DNA of 64,000 bases from the human T2T-CHM13v2.0 reference genome, Homo sapiens. The notes under the pieces are model-generated. The model was not told the origin of the DNA. It ran no database searches and was given only the letters and a program-made list of their open reading frames with translations. The translations under genes were made by a program, and so were the position numbers. Shown one piece after another: positions 8,235 to 49,598 of the stretch (positions are counted from its first letter, which is position 1; each line of letters starts with the position of its first letter). The DNA is taken from assembly GCF_009914755.1 (NCBI RefSeq), contig NC_060926.1; one strand, 5' to 3'.

Positions 8235-8738
<504 letters not shown>

Positions 8739-9939
8739 TATGCTATAGCTCTTTCCTACATACTTTCTTCTTTTCTCTGTAGACTAAGAAGATCTTGCTG
8801 AGTTCGTACAGTTAGTCTCTTAGGGACTGACCAACTGACCTTGTCTGGTACATTTACCTATTTTATTCGATGTGCAGAACACCTCAGTCATGGCTATAAT
8901 ATATGTAAATAATCACCTCTGTAGCTCAGTCTCCATAGAGCAGCAAGAAATCTATTGACACACTCAGTTTCAGTCACTTAGGTTGTGTAGGAAAAAGAAT
9001 AACTTTTAGAGTGAATAGCATTAGTTAATTGTCGTGGGTAAAAAGGGAGGGGATTTAGTGGGAGATTTTATTTTGACTCATATTAGTAGGTTAATATTAT
9101 CCTGGTTTTCATGTAAATACACACTAAGCCAGGTGAGAATGTTGTGATTTATAACTAGAAAGCTAAATTATAAGTAGAAAGCCCTAGGTAATAACTCTTA
9201 GGGGGAAAAAGATAAAAATATTGCTCATTTTGAGGAAAACATTATTTCTAATTATAAACACATTTATTGAAATATTTGTGACAGAGATTCTTAATTTACA
9301 TGTGGACCCACTACAATTTGAGGAAACCAAAATCATGCCTTTTACAGCAAATGTTATAAATGGAGGAAAAAATACCATTGCCCTTTAAAATCATTTTGTA
9401 AATTTAGATGAGTTATTCCAGATGAATTAACCCCTCTTAGCCATTTTGCAACCTACTAGTGATAATATCAAATGTTGGTTAAAAAATACAAAATAGAAAT
9501 ATAAATTTATCAAGTATTGCATTTTTATGATTTAGGTATGAGAGATTATACAGAATAAGGATACACGTTTTCTATGAGACCATCTCATATAGGAAATGCT
9601 TCTTAACTAGGACAATTTTATTTTCAGTTATAAAAGTGAATCAGCTAAAAAATTATTAATCATCTATGATGTGTAAGACTCTAGATATAGTTGGAAACAG
9701 AGATGAGTGTATCACTAAAAAAACTCCTATCATAGGTGAATAAGTGGTGTGCTTGTAAAGATAATTAATAATACCCAGCAGTGTAGGGTAAGAGACAAAT
9801 GAGTGATGCAGAGGACAAATGTTAAAGAAGTCCAAAGAGAGAGACCACTGTGGGTTATACATTATTTATGCCCTACTTTATTTTGGATAAAGGAAGAGTC
9901 TTGACTATAGTAGATTAAGGAGAAAGTAAAGAGAGTTTA

Positions 9940-10270
<331 letters not shown>

Positions 10271-10699
10271 GATAAAAAAGATGAACCTATGGTTGTTTTA
10301 GGGCCTTAAAGGATGCAGGGAAGGACAGGTAAGGGGTAAGATATTCAGACAGTGAGAATGGCATGGGCTCCAGCATGGATATTCATAGGGCATGGCTAGG
10401 GAAAAGTGATTAGAACAGTTTGTTTCATGTAGAAAATCAGCAGGAAATAAAGTTAGTAGATTTAAAGTAGATCAGTAGAATTAAAGTTAGAGCTCTCTGA
10501 ATGTTAGGCTAAGCTCTGAAATTTAAATTTATAGGTCTGATGAATTGCTCAGGATTTTTTTTGCAGGTATATAATAAGGTGAAATAGGATTTTATGACAA
10601 TTAATCAGTGGTAGTGGGTATGAGAGTATGGACATGGGAAAGATTGGATAGGAATAAAAATTAGGGAGATACTCCAGGAGTAAGGGGAAAATGATCTGA

Positions 10700-11113
<414 letters not shown>

Positions 11114-15735: not shown

Positions 15736-16044
<309 letters not shown>

Positions 16045-16309
16045 CAGGTTTTTGTCCTCTCTTATGGAGCAATTAGTTTTCTTCCTGATATCCTTTCTCC
16101 AATTTTAGCTCTCTCCCTAGTCCATTCTGTATGTTCCTTCTAGAATGGCCTTTCCCAAATACAAAGTTACTAATTTCACTTATCGAATTCAAACCTGCCC
16201 CAGGCTCTTACTGGCTATGAGATAAAATCCAAACTCATTGTGATGACTTCCAAGGCCCTCCTTGGTCTGGGTTCTGCCTATCTCTCCAACCTCATCTCTA
16301 AGAAGCAGT

Positions 16310-16550
16310 AGTGCTGCAGAATTCAGAGAATGGGCTCTGGAGCAAGATTGCCAGGATCCATTCCTAGCATGGCTCGTACAGGCTGTGTAATCCCAGGAGA
16401 GTTAATTAATATCCGTGTGCCTCAAGTTCTTTATTTGCCAAGTAGGGATAATAATCATACCTTCTATGTTAGAGTTGTGCTAAGAGTTGAATGCATTCAT
16501 ACATGTAGAATGTTTAGAATAATTCTTGAAGCAATCAATATTAGGGATTC
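16310..16550. mobile_element. MIR
   Basis: gggctctggagcaagattgcc...gtgcctcaagtt...ataataatcatacct. Confidence 0.65.
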
Positions 16551-17595
16551 TTAAAATTAGCTCTTGCAGATCCCTTGGGCAACCTTCCCTTTGGTCACAT
16601 AAAATGACTCGTAGTTCTCTGAATAAGTTCTACTGTTTCACTCCTCTGTCTTTGTACGTACTTCTGCCTAGAATTTTCTTCTTTTCCTCATCTCTCTGGT
16701 GAATTCCTCCTCATCTGTAAAGATAAGCTCTTCTATGAAGGCTTTCTTGATTATAGTACCCAAGTATTATTTATCCTCCTGCCAGAGCTGCACTTAATAC
16801 AATTGCAATTATCAAAACCTATTGCAATTAAGTGATGATGCATGTCTATCTTCTTTAATTGTCTAATCACTTCTTGAAAACAGAGGACTAGGTTTTACTT
16901 ATTTCTGAAATCCCAGTGCCTAGCACAGTTTTGGCTCAGAGTGTTCATTCAATACATGTTTGTAGAGTGAATAATTCTAAACCAGGATGATTCTAGCTCT
17001 GAAAGGAACTGAGAGGATACAGGGACAATGAGCACACAGCATGATGCATGTAGGCTCAACAAACATTTTTGTTTTTACCCATCTTCTGCTAATACAATCT
17101 TAGGAACTGGAGAAATGGGCATAATTTTTGTGTCAAGGCCATTACATATATGTATTTATAATACATTTTTGTATAATACATGAGGAGCCTTATGGTTCCT
17201 ACATATTATTAAAAGCATATTTTTCTCTGCTTTCGAAAGCTAACTTCCCATGTTTTGTATTTTAAGTGCATACCTAGTTCAGTGAGTGGAGGAGATAATA
17301 AATTGGAAGAATACAATACTGAAGGGAAAGAACACAGATTTTTAAAAAGAAAATATGTTAGAGTATTGTGGAGCCCAGTTTGGAACTAGAGAAGGGCTGC
17401 TGCTATGTACAGAAGACCGCATAGGAACCTCTCGTGTTTTATTATTAAATATTGTTATAACCAGCACATTTGTTTGTCCTCTTCTCACAGACATCAATAT
17501 AATTATCATTTTTTAATCTTTAAAGGGAGGAGATGGTTATAAAGAACTATTAAAGAAAATAGATCATAAATTTCTTAGCATTAGAAAGGTTTTAA

Positions 17596-18029
<434 letters not shown>

Positions 18030-39215: not shown

Positions 39216-40008
39216 AGTATAGATCATGGTTTATACAACTTATTGATTTTAAACCTTTTTTGTTTATTTTCCATAATTTTGGCTTTAATCGAACTTTTCA
39301 TGTGCTCTTAGTTTTTATTATGCACAAATTGCAGGGTGACTGTGACCTCACCCTGTACTTGCTATGGTTCAAATGTCCCCAGCCCCACAAACTTTGTGAA
39401 TATGCCACTCTTTTAGAAGAGGAGCCATAGAAGGAAAGAGAGGTTGAGAACAGTGAGGGAAACAGTAGCGATGCTCTTCTTGAGTTAAAGGCTGTTAACA
39501 TCAAGAACTGGGTAGGGAGTGGTGAAAACACAAAGCTCCCTACCTTGTGGAAAATGAGCTTCCTCCCACACTAGCAGTACAGAGATGGGACTCTCTGAGT
39601 GGGTCTGTTGTGGCTGACAAGACTGGTAAATGGTGGTGTTATCTGATTTCTCTGCAGTGGGGCCAGGAGAAGAATTTCTTTCTGAAATTCTGCTTCCTCT
39701 AACACACCATCAACCTGAGTGAGGGGGCTAGAGAGGGAGGCATTGAGTTGCAGGAGGCATAAAGTAGGGTGTTGAATATTGCAGTAAACTGTCAACTTCA
39801 ATGTATCCAGGCTGCATCTGTCTTTGAAATCAGGGTGCTCTGGGGTTTCTAGCCAGCCAGTTGCCTAGTAACATGCATGAAACACTGAGGGCTAGCCACT
39901 TGAAAGTTTATTTTTGCCCTGAGTTAGTTGCTGAAGATTGAATGTGATCTTGTAGCCAGAGTAATATTTCATTTTTATTCCTGAGCTGGGGAAATAAGCA
40001 AATACTTA

Positions 40009-40224
<216 letters not shown>

Positions 40225-41177
40225 TTATTAAGTGTCTATTAAGTGCTAGATACTTCATCAGCCACTCTATGTTTATTTTATGATTTAATCCTCATCATCA
40301 TTTCCATTATACCGACAAGAAGCCTAACCCTCAGTGTGGTTATGTAGCTTGCTTAATGTCAAAGGAAAACAGTGGCATAGCTGGGATCCAAGGCCAGAGA
40401 TGTTTAACACTTAAGCCTTTCCTCTGGTTTTGCAGGCCGGTGTGGGCATATGGGTTTTCTGGGTGTTGAAAGCTGAGGGCAGAGGAAGCCTCCAGCACTG
40501 AGCCCACTTTTTTTTTTTTTTTTCTTGGATGAGTATGTGGTTTTGCTGATGTCAGATTTGGCTCCACAACCAAGAAGATTTCAATGTCTGTAAACAGTCC
40601 TTTAAGACCATTAGTGCATAGTGAATCAATTTACTTGGGCATAACCAGCATTTAAAAAATCTACATAGAAAAAATAAAAAGTATTAGAGCATTTTGCAAG
40701 TGATTAGGGTATTAATGTTTATGAAACTTTATCCCACCATTTTTTATGGTATATACCTATAAATACACACACACACAAACACACACACATACATATATAC
40801 TTCTACCCAGAATAAGACATAAGAGGATCCTTAGAACACAGATATGGGGAAATGTTTGAGCCACAAAGGAGTCTAGAGGGAATCAAGCAGCACATTGTCA
40901 TTTTGCAAAGAAGGAAATAGGCTCAGTGAGGGAAAGTGACTTGTCTAAAGCCTACAACTGGCATAAATGGGACTAGGATATGCTTTGTCTGGGGCTACAT
41001 CCAGCACATCAATTTTGCTGATTCTTTTTACTTTTCCTCCACTGATATCCTCATGGGCTACCCATCCTCTTCCTGCAGGATTGTATTTCGTGTCGTGTTC
41101 TCAGTGGGGCCTTTACTGGCTGCCCTATTTAAAACACCAATTTCCTGTTTCCCCCTACTTTCCCTAAACTCCTTCCC

Positions 41178-41586
41178 TGATTTGCTTTGCCTCCGTTGCT
41201 TTATCATCATCTGACCCATGATTACATTTTATGTTTTTATTGTTTACCTCCTCCGTGAGAACATATCCTCCTGTATCTAGAACAGTGCGTGGCACCTGGG
41301 AGTATTACAGTAAATATATATTAAATAAATTGGATGACCAAATGGGAATTTCTTACCATAAATCATAGCCAAACAAGTTTGAAAGCTACTGCCTTAGATG
41401 GAAATATTTGTATAAATTCTTTGTGAATGATGATGTAAAACCCACGTGAGAAAGGGCTGTGGTGTGATGTAAAGTTAAACTCCTTATATCTGCCAACACC
41501 CTAACTTCCCTTTGCAGGATTGCTGGAAGCTGGCCAGGGACAGGCTGTGGGGTGTGACTTGAGAAATGGTTCAGAAACATGCTTCA
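41178..41586 (+). repeat. Left arm of a ~400-bp local inverted duplication
   Basis: Reverse complement of 42147-42537 along its length, with two internal indels. Confidence 0.95.
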
Positions 41587-42146
41587 CTTGTTCCTGCTCC
41601 AGGTAGCTGTTGTCTGCAAGGCCTCTCTAGTCTTTGTTAAACAAAAAGAGCATGGAGCTTCACTTTGTGGGGTGTGAGTATGTGTGTAACATCAACAGCA
41701 TGTATGTACTCTGTGTGTATGTATGTGTGGTCTCCTTCCACCAACCCACAACACAGCTGAGACAAACCAACATATAAATAAAGGTGTGACTCATGTTGAA
41801 GTATAATATTTAAGCTCTGAAATTCAGAAAATATAACTAGAGATTACAAAATAATTCTTAAGTCTCCTCGTTAGAGTCAGTTCAAAGAGGGCAGGGGAGA
41901 ATATTTAATTCATTTCTTAAACTCCTGGGGCCTCACAGAATGCCTGGTGCCTAGCTCAGTCAATAGCCTGAGTAAAGCAGCAGCTTTGCCCTTCCCCGGG
42001 AAGGGGAGGCTTCCATGGTTTCCCAGGCTCTCATATGCTTTCTTCTGAGATTCTTCAGAGTTTACAGCTTCACATACTAGCTCTCCCATATTGGATTACT
42101 GGATGCCACTTTCAATAGTTTTCATCCCTTTCTATATTGCAGAATC

Positions 42147-42537
42147 TGAAGCATGTTTCTGAACCATTTCTCAAGTTACACCCCACAGCTTGTCCCTGGC
42201 CAGCTTCCAGCAACCCTGCAAAGAGAAGCTAGGGTCTTGGCAGATACAAGGAGCTTAACTTTACATCACACCACAGGCCTTTCTCAAATAACTTATATTT
42301 CCATCTAAGTCAGTAGCCTTCAAAATTGTTTGGTTATGATTTATGGTAAGAAATTCATCTTACATATTCTCATTTGGTCATCCCATTCATTTAATGTATA
42401 TTTACTGTAATACTCCCAGGTGCCAGGCACTGTTCTAGATACAGGAGGATATGTTTCTCTGGAGGAGGCAAACAATAAAAACATAAAATATAATCATGGG
42501 TCAGATGATGATAAAGCAATGGAGGCAAAGCCAATCA
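42147..42537 (-). repeat. Right arm of the inverted duplication, flanked by 85-bp direct repeats (42065-42149, 42539-42623)
   Basis: tgaagcatgtttctgaaccatttctcaag is the reverse complement of cttgagaaatggttcagaaacatgcttca; direct repeats differ at 9 of 85 positions by my count. Confidence 0.95.
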
Positions 42538-43329
42538 TCAGTTTCACATACTAGCTCTACCATGTTGGATTACTGGATGCCACTCTCAGTAGTTTTCTTC
42601 CCCTTCTATATTGTGGAATCTGAGAACATAGGTACAGGGTTGATGCCTGTTGTCTTGCATAATTATACACAACCTTGTTGCTTCCTTAGAAGCTCAATTT
42701 CACCAGAATTTTTTAAAATTTTGCCCCTAGGATGTTAGTCTTTGGCAGTCTCCTGTCATTTTAGGGGTTGAATTCCTTTATAGCAGTCTCTTTTAGATAA
42801 AGGAATCACACTCTTTTTCTGAACTTCCTTAAGTTTGATTTCTTAGACTCTTGCCCGGTATTTGTCAAAACTTTCTCCTCCATCCACTGAATTAGAATCA
42901 CCTGGAGTTGCTTGTCAAAAATGCAGACTCAGACCTATTAAATCAGAAACTAATAGTGGTATCCAAAAATACGCGCTTTTATAACAAGCTCTCCTAGTGA
43001 GCCTTCAGTATGCCAGTTTGAGAACCTTTGCCCTAGGGTATGTCATAGGATGATACTGTTCTCATCATTCCCATGGGGCAAATCAGATGGTCATTGGCTT
43101 GGAATTGTGTCCAGAGTCTAGTCCCTGGATTGCTTTCTCTACCTTCTAAGTGATGATCGCACTACACATGGAGTAGATGAAGAAAAGATAGCCCTTGCTT
43201 TGTTTTCACCAAAGCTGCTAACAGTTGTCTAGATGCCCATTATTCATCACAGCTGCATGCTGCCCTGATCCTTGTTTGATACATGTTAGGATTTTATGCT
43301 TTTCTGTTAGACTCACAGTGTCACAGGTG

Positions 43330-43570
43330 TACCCTTGTGGTTAAGTCTGCAGGCACTGAACCCAATTGCTTGAATCCCAGCTCTGCTGCTTACAATCTGA
43401 ATTACTTTGGGCAAGTTACTTACCATCTCTCTACATTAGTTTCCTAATCTGAAAATATGATAATAGTATCAACCTCATAAAGCTATTGTAAGGACTGAAA
43501 ATGTAAATATATGTTAAACATTTATAAGTAGGTTCTGGAATACAATAAATGCTTAATGTGTTGATCTTAT
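43330..43570. mobile_element. MIR
   Basis: tgaatcccagctctgctgcttac...tttgggcaagttacttac...tttcctaatctgaaaat. Confidence 0.75.
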
Positions 43571-45067
43571 TATTATTATTATTATTATATTTTTCAGTAG
43601 CCTCTAGCCTTCTGACAAGAACAGAGGTAAAGGATCTCCCTTTCCATGCTCTGGACAGGATTTCTGTGAAATACAAGCATTTTGTTTAATTGCACTATCA
43701 TCCTTCTCCAATGAAGTAGGGGGTCTTTCTCTTCCTGGGCAGAGCAAGTCAGGTCAGTGGCCTGGGCTGCACTAAATGTACTCACGTGCTGAAGGCTCTC
43801 AAACACCTTTGGTCTGTACTAGCGTCATGGACTTTTTTGCCTTTAGACATTTTCCATGTCTTTTTTTTTTTTTTTTTTTTTTTCTGAATAGCCTCAGTCC
43901 TGCTTGTCTCAACTTTCTAAACAACGTGGCCCACTGTTTCAGTTGCTCTTGTCTCTTTTCTTACCGGTCACACACAATAGAATGTGCTGCCTTGTTGTGA
44001 TTAAAAGAGAAGCTTCCTTACTTTGGAGAAATTACAAATGTGAGTGGGAGACCTCATGCTGTCAGTCTTGCACAATGCTTTTAATGCCCTTAAAAAAACA
44101 TCTGGAGAGTCACTTCAGATAACTTTTTTCCAAAACATCATGGTGTCAGAATTAAATGAGGAAGGCTTCCTTTGCTTTACTTTGAGGATTTTGTCACAGG
44201 CACAAAAATGAAGATTTTTCGCCTCCCCCAACTTCTCTATTACAATAGCTGTACCTAACTTTAAAGCATTGTCTAGGTTCTCTACTCAAATGTCAGTAAT
44301 TGTGAATCACACAGAATGGCACCTTTTTGTTCAAAATAAGATTTGGGCTTTAGATATTAATCACAGATGATACTCTAATTCTGAATGCTGCTTTATAATG
44401 AACCCCAAATATTCCTGGGGCTCTAAAAGCACTTCTGGGATTCTAATATTAACAGTATTAGACATTCTTCTATAGTTTCCTTTTGGATCACCTGGTTTCT
44501 GGATGATTTTGAAGAAGAAAGCTTAATTTATGTTTACAGATACTCAGGGTCTCAAAAAAGTGGACCCATTGCTAAAAGGCAAAGCATACCGTTTTAGAAG
44601 ATATCTTTTAGAAAATATGGTGGTATATTTGTAAGCAATTTTTTTTTTCAAATGACTATACAAACAGAATTCTAAAGAAAAGAAAAGGAAGTCCTAAATT
44701 CACCACTTTCTTCCCTATGTGGAACTTTGCTGAAGTCCTTTTATAGCTGAATAATTCCTTACGTATGAAGACACTTCTCTAGTGGATGTGCCGGCAGTGG
44801 TTAGATGGGTAACTGTGACCTGGTTACTACTATGTGCTGCTGTAACTCTAGTTATGAATCAGGGTCCCCCCATTTCTGGGGGTTCATAGTCTCTATAGCA
44901 ATGGATCCCTCTCCCTGTATTGCTGTGCCTCCTGCCTCTCAGCAGCACTGAGTTTTCATGTTTCCTTCTACCTCAGCCATGTTCATGTCAACTTATATGT
45001 CTTTACTATATGTAATAATAAAAAGGGTGACAGGCATCAGAAAGAATGATAACAATAAAGGATTCTA

Positions 45068-45280
45068 GGCCGGGCATGGTGGCTCACGCCTGTAATCCCA
45101 GCACTTTGGGAGGCTGAGGCGGGCGGATCACGAGGTCAGGAGATGAAGACCATCCTGGCTAACACAGTGAAACTCCATCTCTATTAAAAATACAAAAAAT
45201 TAGCCGGGCATGGTGGTGGGCGCCTGTGGTCCCAGCTACTTGGGAGGCTGAGGCAGGAGAATCGCTTGAACCCAGTGAGC
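45068..45280 (+). mobile_element. 3'-truncated Alu (AluY/Sc-like)
   Basis: Left arm plus part of right arm, ending gaaccc-agtgagc; no A-tail. Confidence 0.9.
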
Positions 45281-47712
45281 TATGTCAAAGTGGGATGACC
45301 TGACTAAGGCTGCTTGGCTGGTTAGACACAGAGCCAGGACTGAAGCCCAGACTCCCTATTTCAACACAGTAGAGAGACCCAGCAGTCTCTCTACTGTGGC
45401 TTGTCATGGGTGCAGCCTGGAATCATCATGCCTTTCCAGACATCACTTCTCTGTAGGGTCTTAGAAAATTAATTGCTATGACCTTTCCATTTCTTTGTGG
45501 AGTTAAGATGTGAATCAAGATTGTCTCTTTTTTTGAGACTGGTGTGACCAATCACCTAGAATATTTTGAAGGTGGCACAGCTAAATTCTGCTTATTTGGG
45601 AAGGAGGGGCATTTCAAGGTGGCCTCTTGAGGAGATTTAATGAACAACCAAAGTGGCTATAAAGGGACATAAAAGCATAATGCATAGTTTTAGCATTAGC
45701 CCCACTGAGTTTCTCCAGCATCAAGTGAAGTGTTTTGTTTTCATTAAATGAGCTCACAGTTGGTAAAGATTTGGGTAGGGGGAGGGCAAGACAGGTTCTA
45801 CAAAAAGCAAAATCTCAAATACCACTAATAATGAAAAGAGAAGGCTTGCTTTCATTATTTTCTAATTAGAGAGTTGAACTTTATAGCTGAGAAAATAAGG
45901 CTTTCCTCTTTAAGCGTAATGCCCTTTTTCCAGCAGGCTGCTCCACACGATCCTTTGCTTACAGAGGGGCCCATTCAGCAGAGAACAAGTGCCAGGCAAA
46001 TAAATGACTAATCACTCCCCTTCCAGATGAAGGGCCAAGAATGAGAAGGGGGATGGAACTACAATGTCCCACAGGCTCTCTGGGAGAGACGGAGCCTCAA
46101 TCTTTATTAACTTCAGAGTGGGGAAATTACACCCTACTGGCATGCACTCTTTTTCTTAAAATCATGAGCAACATAAGTTAATGTCCCTGTCATTAGAAAA
46201 CCATGAAGCTCTCTGTGCACATACTGAAGTATGATGTGTGAGAAGGAATCTTTGGTTACTCTTTGAGTCTCGTGGGGTGGCCCAGTCTTGTGAGCTCATA
46301 GTTACCTATGGATTATCCCAACATTGGTTTTCTTCTTCACCCTCCTCCATGTCTTCTGCCTTTTCGTTCCTACTTCACTCCACTCCCATCATTGTACATT
46401 TACCTCGGAGGAATACCTATTGGTCTCTGATTATTTTTAGATTTAGATCAAAGTTGAAGGGAGTCATGGATATTTGTGATCTTTGAATAAAGCCTACTCT
46501 ATTGAATAGATTATTTTATTACTTTTTCCAGAGTTACCTCCAAGCCTGTCTCCTTGTCCTGGCACTTAAGGGTCTCTGCAATTCAGTGTCCTCTCCATCT
46601 CAGCCAGTTATCTAAACTCACTTTCCATTCCTTAAACAGCATGTTTACTCCCAAGTAGTAGCCTCATCCTGTTCTCCTCCTGCCATGCTTTTGCTCCTGC
46701 CATCTCTTCACTTGGATTCCTTACTCTGCCTTTCTCTGTATGTTGTGGTACCGCATAACGGTTAAGAACATGACTCTGGAGCCATACTGTCTGGGACCAA
46801 ATCTTGACCTGAGATAGAGATACTTAACCTCTTGATGCCTTGGTCTCCTCATCTAAAAGTAGGGTTGATAGTTCCTATCTCATAAGGTTGCTATGGGACT
46901 TAAAAAGTACTTAAAAACAGTGCAGGTATTTAATAAGGGCTACATACATATTAGCTGCTATTTTCACATTTACCCATATAAACGTTACTGATTCCATGAG
47001 GTCTAATTCAAATCTGTTAGCTCTACCATAAAGCCTCTCTGACTTCCCCAGCCCAAAAGGACTTCTCTAAGATCTTATTTCTAGGTACCACACACTCTCA
47101 TAGTGAATATCTACTAGCTTGTATTATTATTTTATTATTTTATGTTTTCCCCCTCATTGAGACTATGAACTTCTCGAGGACATGAATCTAATCCTGTGTC
47201 TTTTGTGTTCTTGATATAGACATGTGGGGAGACCCCAAATCCTAAGGCATGTGATATCACCTCATTCGGAATTTGTTTGTTGAATACCTTGTTTTTGGTG
47301 GGGGACATGATGAATGAGTAGTTCCAGATCCATTATGCAATGGTGAGTTGAAAACACTTTATAAGCAGCCGGTAGAGCTGTGGTGTGTGAGGGAAGTGGC
47401 AGGAGTGGAGAGACTGTTGAGAAATATTTCTAGGATCAACAGAATCTCTTTCCTGGTGTTTGAGAGTTGCAAGTAAAGAGTATGGGTTATTTTTGAAATT
47501 ATTTTTGGTTGCTGCTCTGTATTCTTTTGATTGCATTAATCTGAGATGAAGCTACATGGTCACAGCTTTGTAACATGACAATTATACATGTAAAATTACA
47601 TCTACACAAAGTAAAAGTACTATACAAAGGCAGTGCACCAAGGATACCAATTTTTAGAATCCAGTGATATAAAAGAGAGTCCTCTGAGACGATCTCTTCT
47701 TTTGCTTCACAT

Positions 47713-47806
47713 CTATCTCTTCATTTCAGAGTCATTCCAATCCGTGTTTTCTCTTTTTTCTTTAAGGGTGAGCTCCTTTATTGCCTCATCACAATTTTGC
47801 CATGGG
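47713..47806 (-). CDS. LHCGR: LHCGR cryptic exon 6A, coding part (stop-containing alternative/terminal exon)
   Basis: ctttctgctttggttacag|C CCA TGG; in frame with exon 6: (L)PWQNCDEAIKELTLKEKRENTDWNDSEMKR*, giving a 209-aa product; GT donors give 159-nt (to 47648) and 207-nt (to 47600) internal forms, matching the exon 6A sizes I recall. Confidence 0.92.
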
Positions 47807-47895
47807 CTGTAACCAAAGCAGAAAGAGTGAGAGGGATATGGATTTTAGGAGCAGAATTAAATCAGGGTCACTGGGCTTTAGGTATAAAGAAATGA

Positions 47896-48310
<415 letters not shown>

Positions 48311-48420
48311 TTATCTTAGTGGAGTGCTCCTCAAACTTTAATGTACATGTGAATCACTTGGGATCTTGTAAAAAGCATATTCTGAGTTAGTAGGTCTGCG
48401 GTGAGCTATTTCTAACTAGA

Positions 48421-48840
48421 GGATATGGTTTAGATCTGTGTTTCCACAAAATTGCATTACAAATTATAATCCCCAGTGTTGGAGGTGGGGCCTGGTGGGA
48501 GGTGACTGGATCATGGGGGTGGTTTCTCATGGATGGTTTAGCACCATCCCCCTAGTGCTGTTCTTGTGATAGAGTTCTCATGAGATCTGATTGTTTAAAA
48601 GTGCGTGACATCTCCCTGCTCTCTCTCTTCCTACTGCTCCTGGCCATGTGAGGTGCTGGCTCACCCTTCACCTTCCATCAGTATTGTAAGTTTCCTGAGA
48701 CCTCCCCAGAAGCTGAGCAGATGCCAGAATCATGCTTCCTGCAAAGCCTGCAGAATTGTGAGCCAATTAAAACCTCTTTTCTTTATAAATTACCCAGTCT
48801 CAGGTAGTTCTTTATAGCAATGTGAGAATGGACTTATACA
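48421..48840 (+). mobile_element. MST-type MaLR solo LTR nested in a MER5-family MITE (~48320-48890)
   Basis: gatatggtttagatctgtg...gtaagtttcctgag...caattaaaacctcttttctttataaattacccagtctcagg...ataca. Confidence 0.9.
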
Positions 48841-49481
48841 CCAGCTCTCAGAAGATGCTGAAGATCATGGCTCATAGTTTGAATAGTGAGGCCTTAGGAA
48901 ACACCATGAAAGGGATAGCCTGGTAACCCGACGAGTAACTGTCAAATAAAAACACATTATTTGTAAGCATTAAGGAATAGAGAGAATGAGTATAGATAGT
49001 GTTGCTTCAGAAGCAAAGTGAGAGGGACCCAAGAGGAAGGCGAAAATGAGAGAGACAGAGCAAGGTCCATTGATCAACTACTTTTCCTACTTGGAGAATA
49101 TCCTTCCAAACTCTTCTCTGTTGAAATCTTGAAATTTCTATGCTCTTTTTAAGCCAGGAAAGCCACTCCTCTCTAGACTGTGTCTTCCCAGCCTTAGAGC
49201 ATTCTCCATTAATGCAGTGAACAATTTCATAAGTTTGAGACTCAGTCACTAAAAATCCTCAGGGCCTGTTTGGTTAAACTGAATTGGTTGGTTGGTTGTC
49301 ATGTGAACATATGACCCAGCTGTGATCTTACACAACTCCCTTCACCCTTAGCATTTTAGGTTAAGAAGAATGTCACCAGTGAGTGAGGAATGTGGTAAAA
49401 CATGAGAAAAAGCTCACCCCAACCTAGTAGTGAGACTAGCAGGAGGCTGTATGGCAGAACACAAATCTGGGAGTTTACTCA

Positions 49482-49598
<117 letters not shown>

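What the first reader, a model, noticed from the sequence alone, without database searches (positions are those of the whole stretch)
41178..42623. Template-switch inverted duplication (85-bp repeat / 390-bp inverted copy / 85-bp repeat) that could form a long non-Alu hairpin in LHCGR intron 6
Seen: 41178-41586 and 42147-42537 are reverse complements, separated by a ~560-bp loop. The right arm sits exactly between two copies of an 85-bp sequence (42065-42149, 42539-42623; 9 mismatches), with TGA microhomology at the first junction and tca/cag overlap at the second. The arms mix unique DNA with an L2 scrap, so these are not transposon termini. Inference: a replication fork template switch (FoSTeS/MMBIR-like) copied nearby opposite-strand DNA and then resumed 85 bp back; ~10% divergence suggests an old primate event. 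In pre-mRNA it would give a ~400-bp dsRNA stem between exon 6A and exon 7 (1.1 kb from the exon 7 acceptor), formed on either strand, so also in an antisense GTF2A1L transcript.
Basis: partly seen in the sequence, partly recalled or inferred. Interest (0 to 1): 0.8.

Follow-up and report, generated by a model that had tools for sequence, protein, structure and literature searches.

The report
Old inverted duplication in LHCGR intron
A 400-base piece of LHCGR intron 6 was long ago copied backwards into a spot 560 bases away, leaving a clean scar of a DNA copying slip that can fold into a long RNA hairpin but has no shown function.

Summary
41178-41586 and 42147-42537 are reverse complements: 22 mismatches in 365 solidly aligned positions (94.0%), with three indel zones. 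The right arm sits between two 85-bp direct copies with 9 of 85 mismatches. The human assembly holds only these two copies of the arm and of the 85-mer. The arms share only a 40-60-nt scrap with a high-copy old repeat.

Junction 1 has the TGA microhomology. Junction 2 has no overlap, only one orphan T at 42538. There is no poly(A).

Best reading: one templated inverted insertion made by a microhomology-primed template switch, with a return 85 bp back. A fork-based and a break-repair fold-back version cannot be separated. Divergence (pooled JC 0.072) suggests about 24-52 My at an assumed rate. No primate outgroups could be consulted.

Either strand folds into a stem of about 355 bp, about -610 kcal/mol against -184 for shuffles. 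It is the only long inverted repeat in intron 6. Editing, small RNAs and splicing effects are untested. It is a new, unusually long member of a known mutation class.

The parts
41178..41586 (.). Left arm (L), 409 nt: the retained template of the inverted copy
   Evidence: No direct repeat flanks it.
41587..42064 (.). Unique part of the spacer between the arms. The full spacer, 41587-42146, is 560 nt and includes the first 85-mer.
   Evidence: Single copy in the genome apart from the 85-mer.
42065..42149 (+). D: first copy of the 85-bp direct repeat. Its last 3 nt (TGA, 42147-42149) are shared with the start of the right arm (junction 1 microhomology).
42147..42537 (.). Right arm (R), 391 nt: the inserted reverse-complement copy of L
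   Evidence: Second of only 2 genome matches to L.
42538..42538 (.). Orphan T at junction 2, templated neither by L nor by the base that precedes D
   Evidence: junction printout.
42539..42623 (+). D': second copy of the 85-bp direct repeat, 9 of 85 mismatches to D
42399..42452 (.). Scrap of a high-copy ancient interspersed repeat inside R. Its mirror in L is 41263-41320.
   Evidence: The 14-mer at 42420-42433 occurs 3379 times in the genome against 1 for the reversed control. 1 of 20 sampled sites gave a 54-58-nt HSP at 72-74%. Ungapped similarity to the 20 sites exceeds background only at about 42400-42440.
40010..40078 (-). LHCGR exon 7 (context). Its acceptor is 1100 nt from the left arm.
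   Evidence: Hub annotation table.
47585..47611 (-). Exon 6A long-donor region (context). The hairpin lies between this and exon 7.
   Evidence: The mutagenesis primer printed in PMC5377329 maps here with its 1 intended mismatch.

Best explanation
The structure is a fossil of one templated inverted insertion.

Inferred sequence of events:
1. A 3' DNA end that had been copied through the 85-bp segment D, ending ...TGA at 42149, left its template.
2. It paired through the 3-nt TGA/TCA microhomology with same-sense DNA 560 nt behind it, at 41584-41586. That DNA was either the nascent strand folded back on itself or the opposite template at a fork.
3. It copied about 409 nt backwards, down to 41178.
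4. It then returned to, or was joined to, the original duplex 85 bp upstream of where it had left, so D was copied twice.

In the four-point template-switch notation the order on the ancestral sequence is 3-2-4-1: point 4 before point 1, and point 2 before point 1. [quoted passage not shown]

Shown: the anatomy. Inferred: that it was a single event and how it happened.

The copy then decayed, apparently neutrally, for tens of millions of years. As a by-product, any transcript through it is predicted to fold into a stem of about 355 bp with a 560-nt loop. This applies to LHCGR pre-mRNA on the minus strand and to the STON1-GTF2A1L readthrough on the plus strand. Such a stem would be a good ADAR substrate but is removed with the intron. 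I expect no phenotypic role.
For: - R is exactly bracketed by D and D'. The ends of the inverted homology (42147, 42537) lie within 0-3 nt of the inner ends of the 85-mers (42149, 42539).
- L is retained and has no flanking direct repeat.
- Junction 1 carries TGA microhomology.
- Neither end of R has an A or T run.
- The whole assembly holds 2 of 2 matches to L (L itself and R) and 2 of 2 to D.
- Arm divergence (22 of 365) and D divergence (9 of 85) are compatible with one age (Fisher p=0.15).
- The substitutions look like ordinary decay: 14 transitions to 8 transversions, 2 CpG-associated, and no strand bias in G-U wobbles (9 against 5, p=0.42).
[quoted passage not shown] PMC8421209 (passages) reports about 100 events of 25 bp or more per person. 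PMC7954356 (passages) describes the four-point model and records '4 before 1' events.
- Folding: -768.6 kcal/mol for the minus strand and -760.5 for the plus strand. There are 354-356 inter-arm pairs, with longest helices of 59 and 67 bp.
Against: - No outgroup sequence was available, so the pre-insertion state (one D, no R) is inferred and not seen.
- Junction 2 has no microhomology and carries an orphan base.
- The copied tract (409 nt) and the jump (560 nt) are much longer than in the catalogues read. In great-ape events the 2->3 tract has median 12 and maximum 128 (PMC7954356). MMBSearch looks for templates only within 100 bp (PMC8421209). Both methods have limited search spaces.
- D is nominally more diverged than the arms (10.6% against 6.0%). 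If real, this could mean two events, or arm homogenisation.
- The genome search scores only the best candidates and would miss strongly diverged copies (notes).
Confidence: 0.75

Rival explanations
1. Non-replicative break-repair version. A staggered or resected double-strand break occurs at D. The 3' tail folds back on itself, primes at TGA and copies L (synthesis-dependent MMEJ). The extended end is then ligated by end-joining to the other break end, whose 85-nt overhang was filled in. This shares the templated-copy step with the best explanation. It differs in how the event is triggered and in how junction 2 and the 85-bp duplication arise.
For: Junction 2 is blunt with one extra base, which is typical of end-joining and not of a primed return. 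Point 2 lies behind point 1, so self-templated fold-back is geometrically possible (logic from PMC7954356 passages). Fold-back priming with a spacer is the accepted model for large human inverted duplications (PMC3907307, title and abstract start only). SD-MMEJ: PMC2943611, listing only.
Against: It needs resection of about 970 nt or more to expose L, plus an 85-nt staggered break or an equivalent. The sequence does not separate it from a fork-based switch. The orphan base could also be a later mutation.
Confidence: 0.3
2. Two independent events: first an 85-bp tandem duplication (D-D'), later an insertion of an inverted copy of L exactly at the D|D' boundary.
For: D/D' divergence (10.6%) is nominally higher than arm divergence (6.0%).
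Against: The difference is not significant (Fisher p=0.15). The second event would have to hit the tandem junction to the base. The TGA shared by the end of D and the start of R fits departure from the end of D.
Confidence: 0.05
3. R is a retrocopy. L1 machinery reverse-transcribed a fragment of an intronic transcript into a nicked target, and the 85-bp repeat is an over-long target-site duplication.
For: R is flanked by a direct duplication. Both strands of the locus are annotated as transcribed (hub table).
Against: Neither end of R has a poly(A) or poly(T) tract. From my own knowledge, 85 bp is far above usual L1 target-site duplications. The source lying 560 nt away in the same intron would be a coincidence.
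Confidence: 0.03
4. The arms are termini of a mobile element (foldback or TIR transposon), or two independent insertions of one repeat family.
For: The arms contain a 14-mer present 3379 times in the genome.
Against: Only 2 of 2 genome matches to the 409-nt arm are the arms themselves. Similarity to 20 sampled sites of that repeat is confined to about 40-60 nt. 94% identity over about 390 nt is far above the 72-74% seen between an arm and a sampled copy. The direct repeat flanks only one arm, not the whole unit.
Confidence: 0.02
5. Whatever its origin, the hairpin is kept by selection. It would act as a functional dsRNA: an ADAR or Dicer substrate, or a structure that modulates exon 6A and exon 7 use in gonadal LHCGR, or the antisense readthrough transcript.
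For: - It is the only inverted repeat of 40 nt or more in intron 6; the two Alu-like copies there are in direct orientation.
- Its stability (-604 to -614 kcal/mol, about 355 bp, 89% paired) exceeds the medians reported for edited human dsRNAs (297 bp, -410 kcal/mol; PMC11838218 preprint, Table 1 passage).
- The arms are nominally less diverged than D.
Against: - There is no excess of G-U-preserving changes on either strand (9 against 5 of 22, p=0.42).
- Three indel zones break the stem.
- It lies 1.1 kb from exon 7 and about 5 kb from exon 6A and flanks no exon.
- No Rfam family matches it.
- No paper held LHCGR with A-to-I and intron (0 papers). None of the 4 papers holding LHCGR and 'inverted repeat' was found to concern this intron. 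The one I opened lists a 6.1-kb deletion elsewhere in the gene; the other three I judged from title and abstract start only.
- About 1 million predicted human dsRNAs exceed 300 bp (PMC11838218), so such stems are common and mostly inert.
Confidence: 0.05

Closest known systems
Microhomology-mediated templated inverted insertions (MMB-TI; FoSTeS/MMBIR family) and the four-point short-range template-switch model
   Same: The inserted segment is the reverse complement of a nearby retained template. There is microhomology at the departure junction. The return falls upstream of the departure point ('4 before 1'), which creates a flanking duplication. The event creates an inverted repeat or hairpin de novo (PMC8421209 and PMC7954356, passages; PMC2621351, listing only).
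   Different: The copied tract is about 409 nt, against a median of 12 and a maximum of 128 in the great-ape set. The template is 560 nt away, against within 100 bp in MMBSearch. The second junction has an orphan base instead of microhomology. This is an old fixed event, not a polymorphism or a somatic change.
Fold-back inverted duplications with a spacer (human germline CNVs)
   Same: Inverted copy separated from its template by a single-copy spacer. A 3' end primes on same-strand DNA at short homology (PMC3907307, title and abstract start).
   Different: Those are events of kilobases to megabases that end in dicentrics or terminal deletions. Here synthesis stopped after about 0.4 kb and the end rejoined locally with an 85-bp duplication.
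Inverted-repeat Alu (IR-Alu) intronic dsRNAs, the main ADAR substrates
   Same: Intramolecular stem of about 300-400 bp in an intron with a loop of a few hundred nt. Predicted stability is at or above the medians for edited dsRNAs (PMC11838218, Table 1 passage).
   Different: The arms are a local duplication of mostly unique intron sequence, not two transposon insertions. Pairing (94% identity, 89% of nucleotides paired) is higher than in the four other pairs of 100 nt or more in this window (77-85%). Editing was not tested.
Small inverted triplications / ODIRA / DUP-TRP/INV-DUP
   Same: Products of replication-error template switches that contain an inverted middle copy between direct copies (PMC13334657, PMC10766186, PMC11293582; listing and abstract starts only).
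   Different: There the inverted middle segment is the same sequence as its direct flanks. Here the inverted segment (a copy of L) differs from the flanking duplicated segment (D).

Membership tests
Templated inverted insertion by template switch (four-point model / MMB-TI / FoSTeS-MMBIR) | The insert is the reverse complement of a nearby sequence that is itself retained | tested here: met
   L 41178-41586 against R 42147-42537, 94.0% over 365 positions; both present.
Templated inverted insertion by template switch (four-point model / MMB-TI / FoSTeS-MMBIR) | Microhomology at the switch junctions | tested here: inconclusive
   Junction 1 has 3-nt TGA. Junction 2 has none and carries one orphan T. 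About 7% decay since the event may have altered junction 2.
Templated inverted insertion by template switch (four-point model / MMB-TI / FoSTeS-MMBIR) | Derived state absent from the ancestor or outgroup (one D, no R) | not testable with these tools
   The held genome has no relatives here (note). No primate assemblies are in any collection offered.
Templated inverted insertion by template switch (four-point model / MMB-TI / FoSTeS-MMBIR) | Short range as operationally defined (template within about 100 bp; tract of tens of nt) | tested here: not met
   The jump is 560 nt and the tract 409 nt, against limits and maxima read in PMC8421209 and PMC7954356. These are limits of the detection methods, not of the mechanism.
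Transposable element with inverted termini, or two insertions of one repeat family | Further copies elsewhere in the genome, and a target-site duplication around the whole unit | tested here: not met
   2 of 2 genome matches are the arms themselves. The direct repeat brackets only R. The shared repeat scrap is limited to about 40-60 nt.
L1-mediated retrocopy | 3' poly(A) next to a short target-site duplication | tested here: not met
   No A or T run at 42147 or 42537. The flanking repeat is 85 bp.
ADAR-edited intronic dsRNA | Long intramolecular duplex within an annotated transcription unit | tested here: met
   Predicted only: MFE -768.6 (minus strand) and -760.5 (plus strand), 354-356 inter-arm pairs. 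It lies inside LHCGR intron 6 and inside the STON1-GTF2A1L span (hub table).
ADAR-edited intronic dsRNA | Clusters of A-to-I sites on both arms in RNA-seq | not testable with these tools
   No RNA-seq or editing database is available. 0 papers held LHCGR with A-to-I and intron.

The most novel reading that the evidence does not exclude
The hairpin would be a primate-lineage regulatory dsRNA of the gonadal LHCGR / STON1-GTF2A1L locus. It would be heavily edited or diced in testis and ovary, and it would influence the balance between the primate-specific cryptic exon 6A and exon 7, or the stability of the antisense readthrough transcript. Separately, it would show that single germline template-switch events can copy 400 nt or more and create long dsRNA genes de novo from unique sequence.
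Probability: 0.05. Interest if true: 0.6.

Novelty: new member of a known kind. Interest (0 to 1): 0.3.

Why it matters
This is a clean example of how one copying slip can create a long, almost perfect RNA hairpin from ordinary unique intron DNA, with no transposon involved. The copied tract is about three times longer than the longest event in the great-ape template-switch catalogue I read.

It lies in a clinically important gene, between the disease-linked cryptic exon 6A and exon 7. Anyone designing LHCGR minigenes, reading long-read or short-read alignments here, or interpreting editing or small-RNA signals from the locus should know that it exists.

The two 85-bp direct copies could also mediate a precise deletion of the right arm. 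Beyond that, it is most likely a neutral scar.

Tried and rejected
- Transposon or independent-insertion origin: rejected. The genome-wide search found 2 of 2 matches that were the arms themselves, and 20 of the 3379 sites carrying the arm's high-copy 14-mer were sampled. My first attempt at the register analysis used coordinates 10 nt off and gave empty output. It was repeated correctly.
- Retrocopy origin: rejected for lack of poly(A).
- Known RNA family: the Rfam E-value scan of 40000-44000 gave 3 weak sub-threshold hits, none inside the hairpin.
- Tandem repeats as a trigger: TRF found only four tiny 2-copy arrays, nothing notable.
- Selection for pairing: the strand asymmetry of G-U wobbles is not significant.
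- Prior description: 13 papers hold LHCGR and 'exon 6A', 0 hold LHCGR with A-to-I and intron, and 4 hold LHCGR and 'inverted repeat'. I found none that describes this structure. The one I opened lists a 6.1-kb LHCGR deletion elsewhere in the gene; the other three and the listing were judged from titles and abstract starts. bioRxiv supplements are closed, so I could not see whether the dsRNAscan tables of PMC11838218 list this hairpin.
- Earlier findings of this scan were not open.
- Outgroup dating could not be attempted, because no primate genomes are held.

Full report
**1. Observation**

The repeat finder, run on 40500-43300, returns one direct family. It is 42065-42149 against 42539-42623: 85 nt, 89% identity, 474 nt start to start. 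It also returns three collinear inverted blocks:
- 41178-41349 / 42366-42537 (172 nt, 92%)
- 41346-41407 / 42295-42356 (62 nt, 94%)
- 41447-41586 / 42147-42286 (140 nt, 94%)

A gapped local alignment of the left region against the reverse complement of the right region begins and ends exactly at 41178/42537 and 41586/42147. It has 353 matches in 377 aligned columns. I dropped two dubious short blocks (1 nt and 11 nt) that lie between the indels. The five solid blocks then hold 22 mismatches in 365 positions (94.0%): 14 transitions, 8 transversions, 2 CpG-associated.

Three indel zones interrupt the arms. There are 1-nt offsets near 41255-41259, about 13 extra nt in the right arm, and about 31 extra nt in the left arm. 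The arms are 409 and 391 nt long, and 560 nt lie between them. The 85-mers differ at 9 positions, 7 of them transitions.

**2. Junctions**

At junction 1 the first 85-mer ends ...TCTGA. The reverse complement of the left arm begins TGAAGC..., so three bases (42147-42149) belong to both. The homology does not extend further on either side.

At junction 2 the right arm ends ...AATCA at 42537, templated by the left arm down to 41178. Then comes a T (42538) that matches neither the next base of the template nor the base that precedes the first 85-mer. The second 85-mer starts at 42539. This junction is blunt with one orphan base, or it has mutated since. Neither end of the right arm has an A or T run.

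**3. Which arm is the copy**

The ends of the inverted homology coincide, within 0-3 nt, with the inner ends of the two 85-mers. The left arm has no flanking direct repeat. The right arm is therefore the insert, the 85-mer is the duplicated target, and the left arm is the retained template.

**4. Not a repeat family**

The window's own assembly (3.1 Gb, 24 contigs) holds 2 matches to the 409-nt arm: the arm itself and the inverted copy. For the 563-nt spacer plus 85-mer it holds the spacer itself and the second 85-mer. That search scores only the best candidates and would miss strongly diverged copies.

One 14-mer inside the arm (42420-42433) occurs 3379 times in the genome (1691 forward, 1688 reverse). 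The reversed control occurs once. The arm therefore carries a piece of a high-copy ancient repeat.

I fetched 20 of those 3379 sites. They were the second to the twenty-first in the listing, all in the first 13.5 Mb of contig C1, so they are not a random sample.
- Only 1 of the 20 gave a BLAST alignment at E of 1e-3 or better. It covers 54-58 nt at 72-74%, at 42399-42452 and its mirror 41263-41320.
- In ungapped register, similarity of the 20 sites to the arm exceeds background only at about 42400-42440.

So roughly 330 or more of the 391 nt are not that repeat. From recall the motif looks like the MIR / L2 3'-end region; no tool named the family.

**5. Mechanism**

The simplest history has four steps:
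1. A 3' end synthesised through D left its template at ...TGA.
2. It annealed by those 3 nt to same-sense DNA 560 nt behind.
3. It copied 409 nt in the reverse direction.
4. It was returned to the original duplex 85 nt upstream of its departure point.

In the four-point notation described in PMC7954356 (passages read) the ancestral order is 3-2-4-1. Point 2 lies behind point 1, so both intra-strand (fold-back) and inter-strand switching are possible. Point 4 lies before point 1, a class those authors report finding.

PMC8421209 (passages read) defines the MMBIR-type signature as an insertion in inverted orientation near its template, flanked by microhomology. It reports about 100 germline events of 25 bp or more per person (103 and 99 in two individuals).

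This event differs in scale. The great-ape set has a median 2->3 length of 12 and a maximum of 128. MMBSearch looks only within 100 bp. Both are limits of the methods.

The blunt junction 2 fits a break-repair variant (fold-back priming, then end-joining) as well as a fork-based one. I cannot separate the two and treat them as versions of one class.

I rate the following as unlikely:
- Two-step origin. Its only support is the non-significant excess of divergence in D: 10.6% against 6.0%, Fisher p=0.15.
- L1 retrocopy. There is no poly(A).
- Mobile element. There are only two copies, and the direct repeat surrounds only one arm.
- Assembly artefact. About 6% divergence between the arms is not what a chimeric fold-back read would give (inference).

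**6. Age**

Pooled, there are 31 differences in 450 sites (6.9%, 95% CI 4.7-9.6%). The Jukes-Cantor distance is 0.072 (0.049-0.103). At an assumed 1.0e-9 substitutions per site per year this is 36 My (24-52). At 0.5e-9 or 1.5e-9 the point estimate is 72 or 24 My.

The rate is my assumption from general knowledge, and gene conversion between the arms would bias the estimate young. 'Old primate event' is a reasonable inference, but it is not shown. No primate assembly is reachable here.

**7. RNA structure**

The 1411-nt minus-strand RNA (LHCGR sense) has an MFE of -768.6 kcal/mol, and both the MFE and the centroid structures are dominated by the arm-arm stem. The plus strand gives -760.5.

The arms alone cofold as follows:

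| | Minus strand | Plus strand |
|---|---|---|
| Cofold energy (kcal/mol) | -613.5 | -603.8 |
| Inter-arm pairs | 356 | 354 |
| Longest uninterrupted helix (bp) | 59 | 67 |

Twenty shuffles of the right arm gave a mean of -183.6 (sd 6.9). About 89% of arm nucleotides are paired.

Within intron 6 (40079-49482) this is the only inverted repeat of 40 nt or more. The two Alu-like elements there are in direct orientation. In the whole 64-kb window the only other inverted pairs of 100 nt or more within 5 kb are four pairs at 77-85%.

For scale, the dsRNAscan preprint (PMC11838218, passages and Table 1) predicts 5,134,754 human dsRNAs. About 1 million of them exceed 300 bp, and only 2,018 are both over 300 bp and more than 96% paired. 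Edited dsRNAs have a median of 297 bp and -410 kcal/mol. This stem is stronger than a typical edited one, but it is not in the rare near-perfect class.

**8. Gene context**

By the hub table, intron 6 runs from exon 6 (49483-49560) to exon 7 (40010-40078) on the minus strand. The left arm is 1100 nt from the exon 7 acceptor.

The exon 6A +5 donor mutagenesis primer printed in PMC5377329 maps to 47585-47611 on the minus strand, with its one intended mismatch. Transcripts that end at the exon 6A polyadenylation site (PMC5377329 passage) would not contain it. The STON1-GTF2A1L span covers the window on the plus strand (hub table).

**9. Function**

There is no evidence for any function:
- Rfam finds nothing in the hairpin.
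- The mismatches show no preference for G-U on either strand: 9 against 5 of 22, p=0.42.
- The stem flanks no exon.
- The literature searches found no description of it.

That an expressed stem of this kind would be edited by ADAR follows from general knowledge of ADAR substrates. It was not tested.

**10. Verdict**

The structural interpretation is well supported as a class (a single templated inverted insertion by template switch), with one junction detail wrong. The dating and every functional claim are untested. It is a new, unusually long member of a known mutation class and most likely a neutral scar.

Noticed in passing
window 39821-39842 (+) and 40313-40333 (-): The primers named LHCGR-in6A-For and LHCGR-in6A-Rev in PMC5377329 match the window only with 2 mismatches each. 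They flank exon 7 (40010-40078), not exon 6A, whose donor primer maps to 47585-47611. Either the printed primers have typos or they amplify a different region than their name suggests.
   Followed up: no
window 42892-43001 (-): Weak sub-threshold Rfam match to mir-544: 30.4 bits against a gathering score of 66.5, E=0.005. It lies about 270 nt beyond the second 85-mer. Two other weak hits lie at 40694-40907 (SCARNA7, mir-297). All are probably chance or repeat-derived.
   Followed up: no
window 45055-45279 and 47884-48103: Two Alu-like elements of intron 6 lie in the same orientation (79-86% alike). The intron therefore has no inverted Alu pair, and the duplication hairpin is its only long inverted repeat. 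The second element lies next to exon 6A.
   Followed up: partly
window 8465-11061 and 15790-17852: Four inverted pairs of 126-146 nt at 77-85% complementarity coincide with stretches that the hub lists as masked repeats. They are presumably inverted SINE pairs near the LHCGR 3' end and in the space between GTF2A1L and LHCGR.
   Followed up: no
window about 41665-41735: A TG/TA-rich alternating purine-pyrimidine tract lies in the spacer between the arms. I saw it by eye; TRF did not report it at minimum score 30. Such tracts can stall replication, so it is a possible but untested trigger for the switch.
   Followed up: partly
window 42065-42149 / 42539-42623 against the arms: The 85-mers are nominally more diverged (10.6%) than the arms (6.0%), Fisher p=0.15. 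If real, this could reflect arm-to-arm homogenisation or a two-step origin. The two 85-mers could also mediate a precise 474-bp deletion of the right arm.
   Followed up: partly
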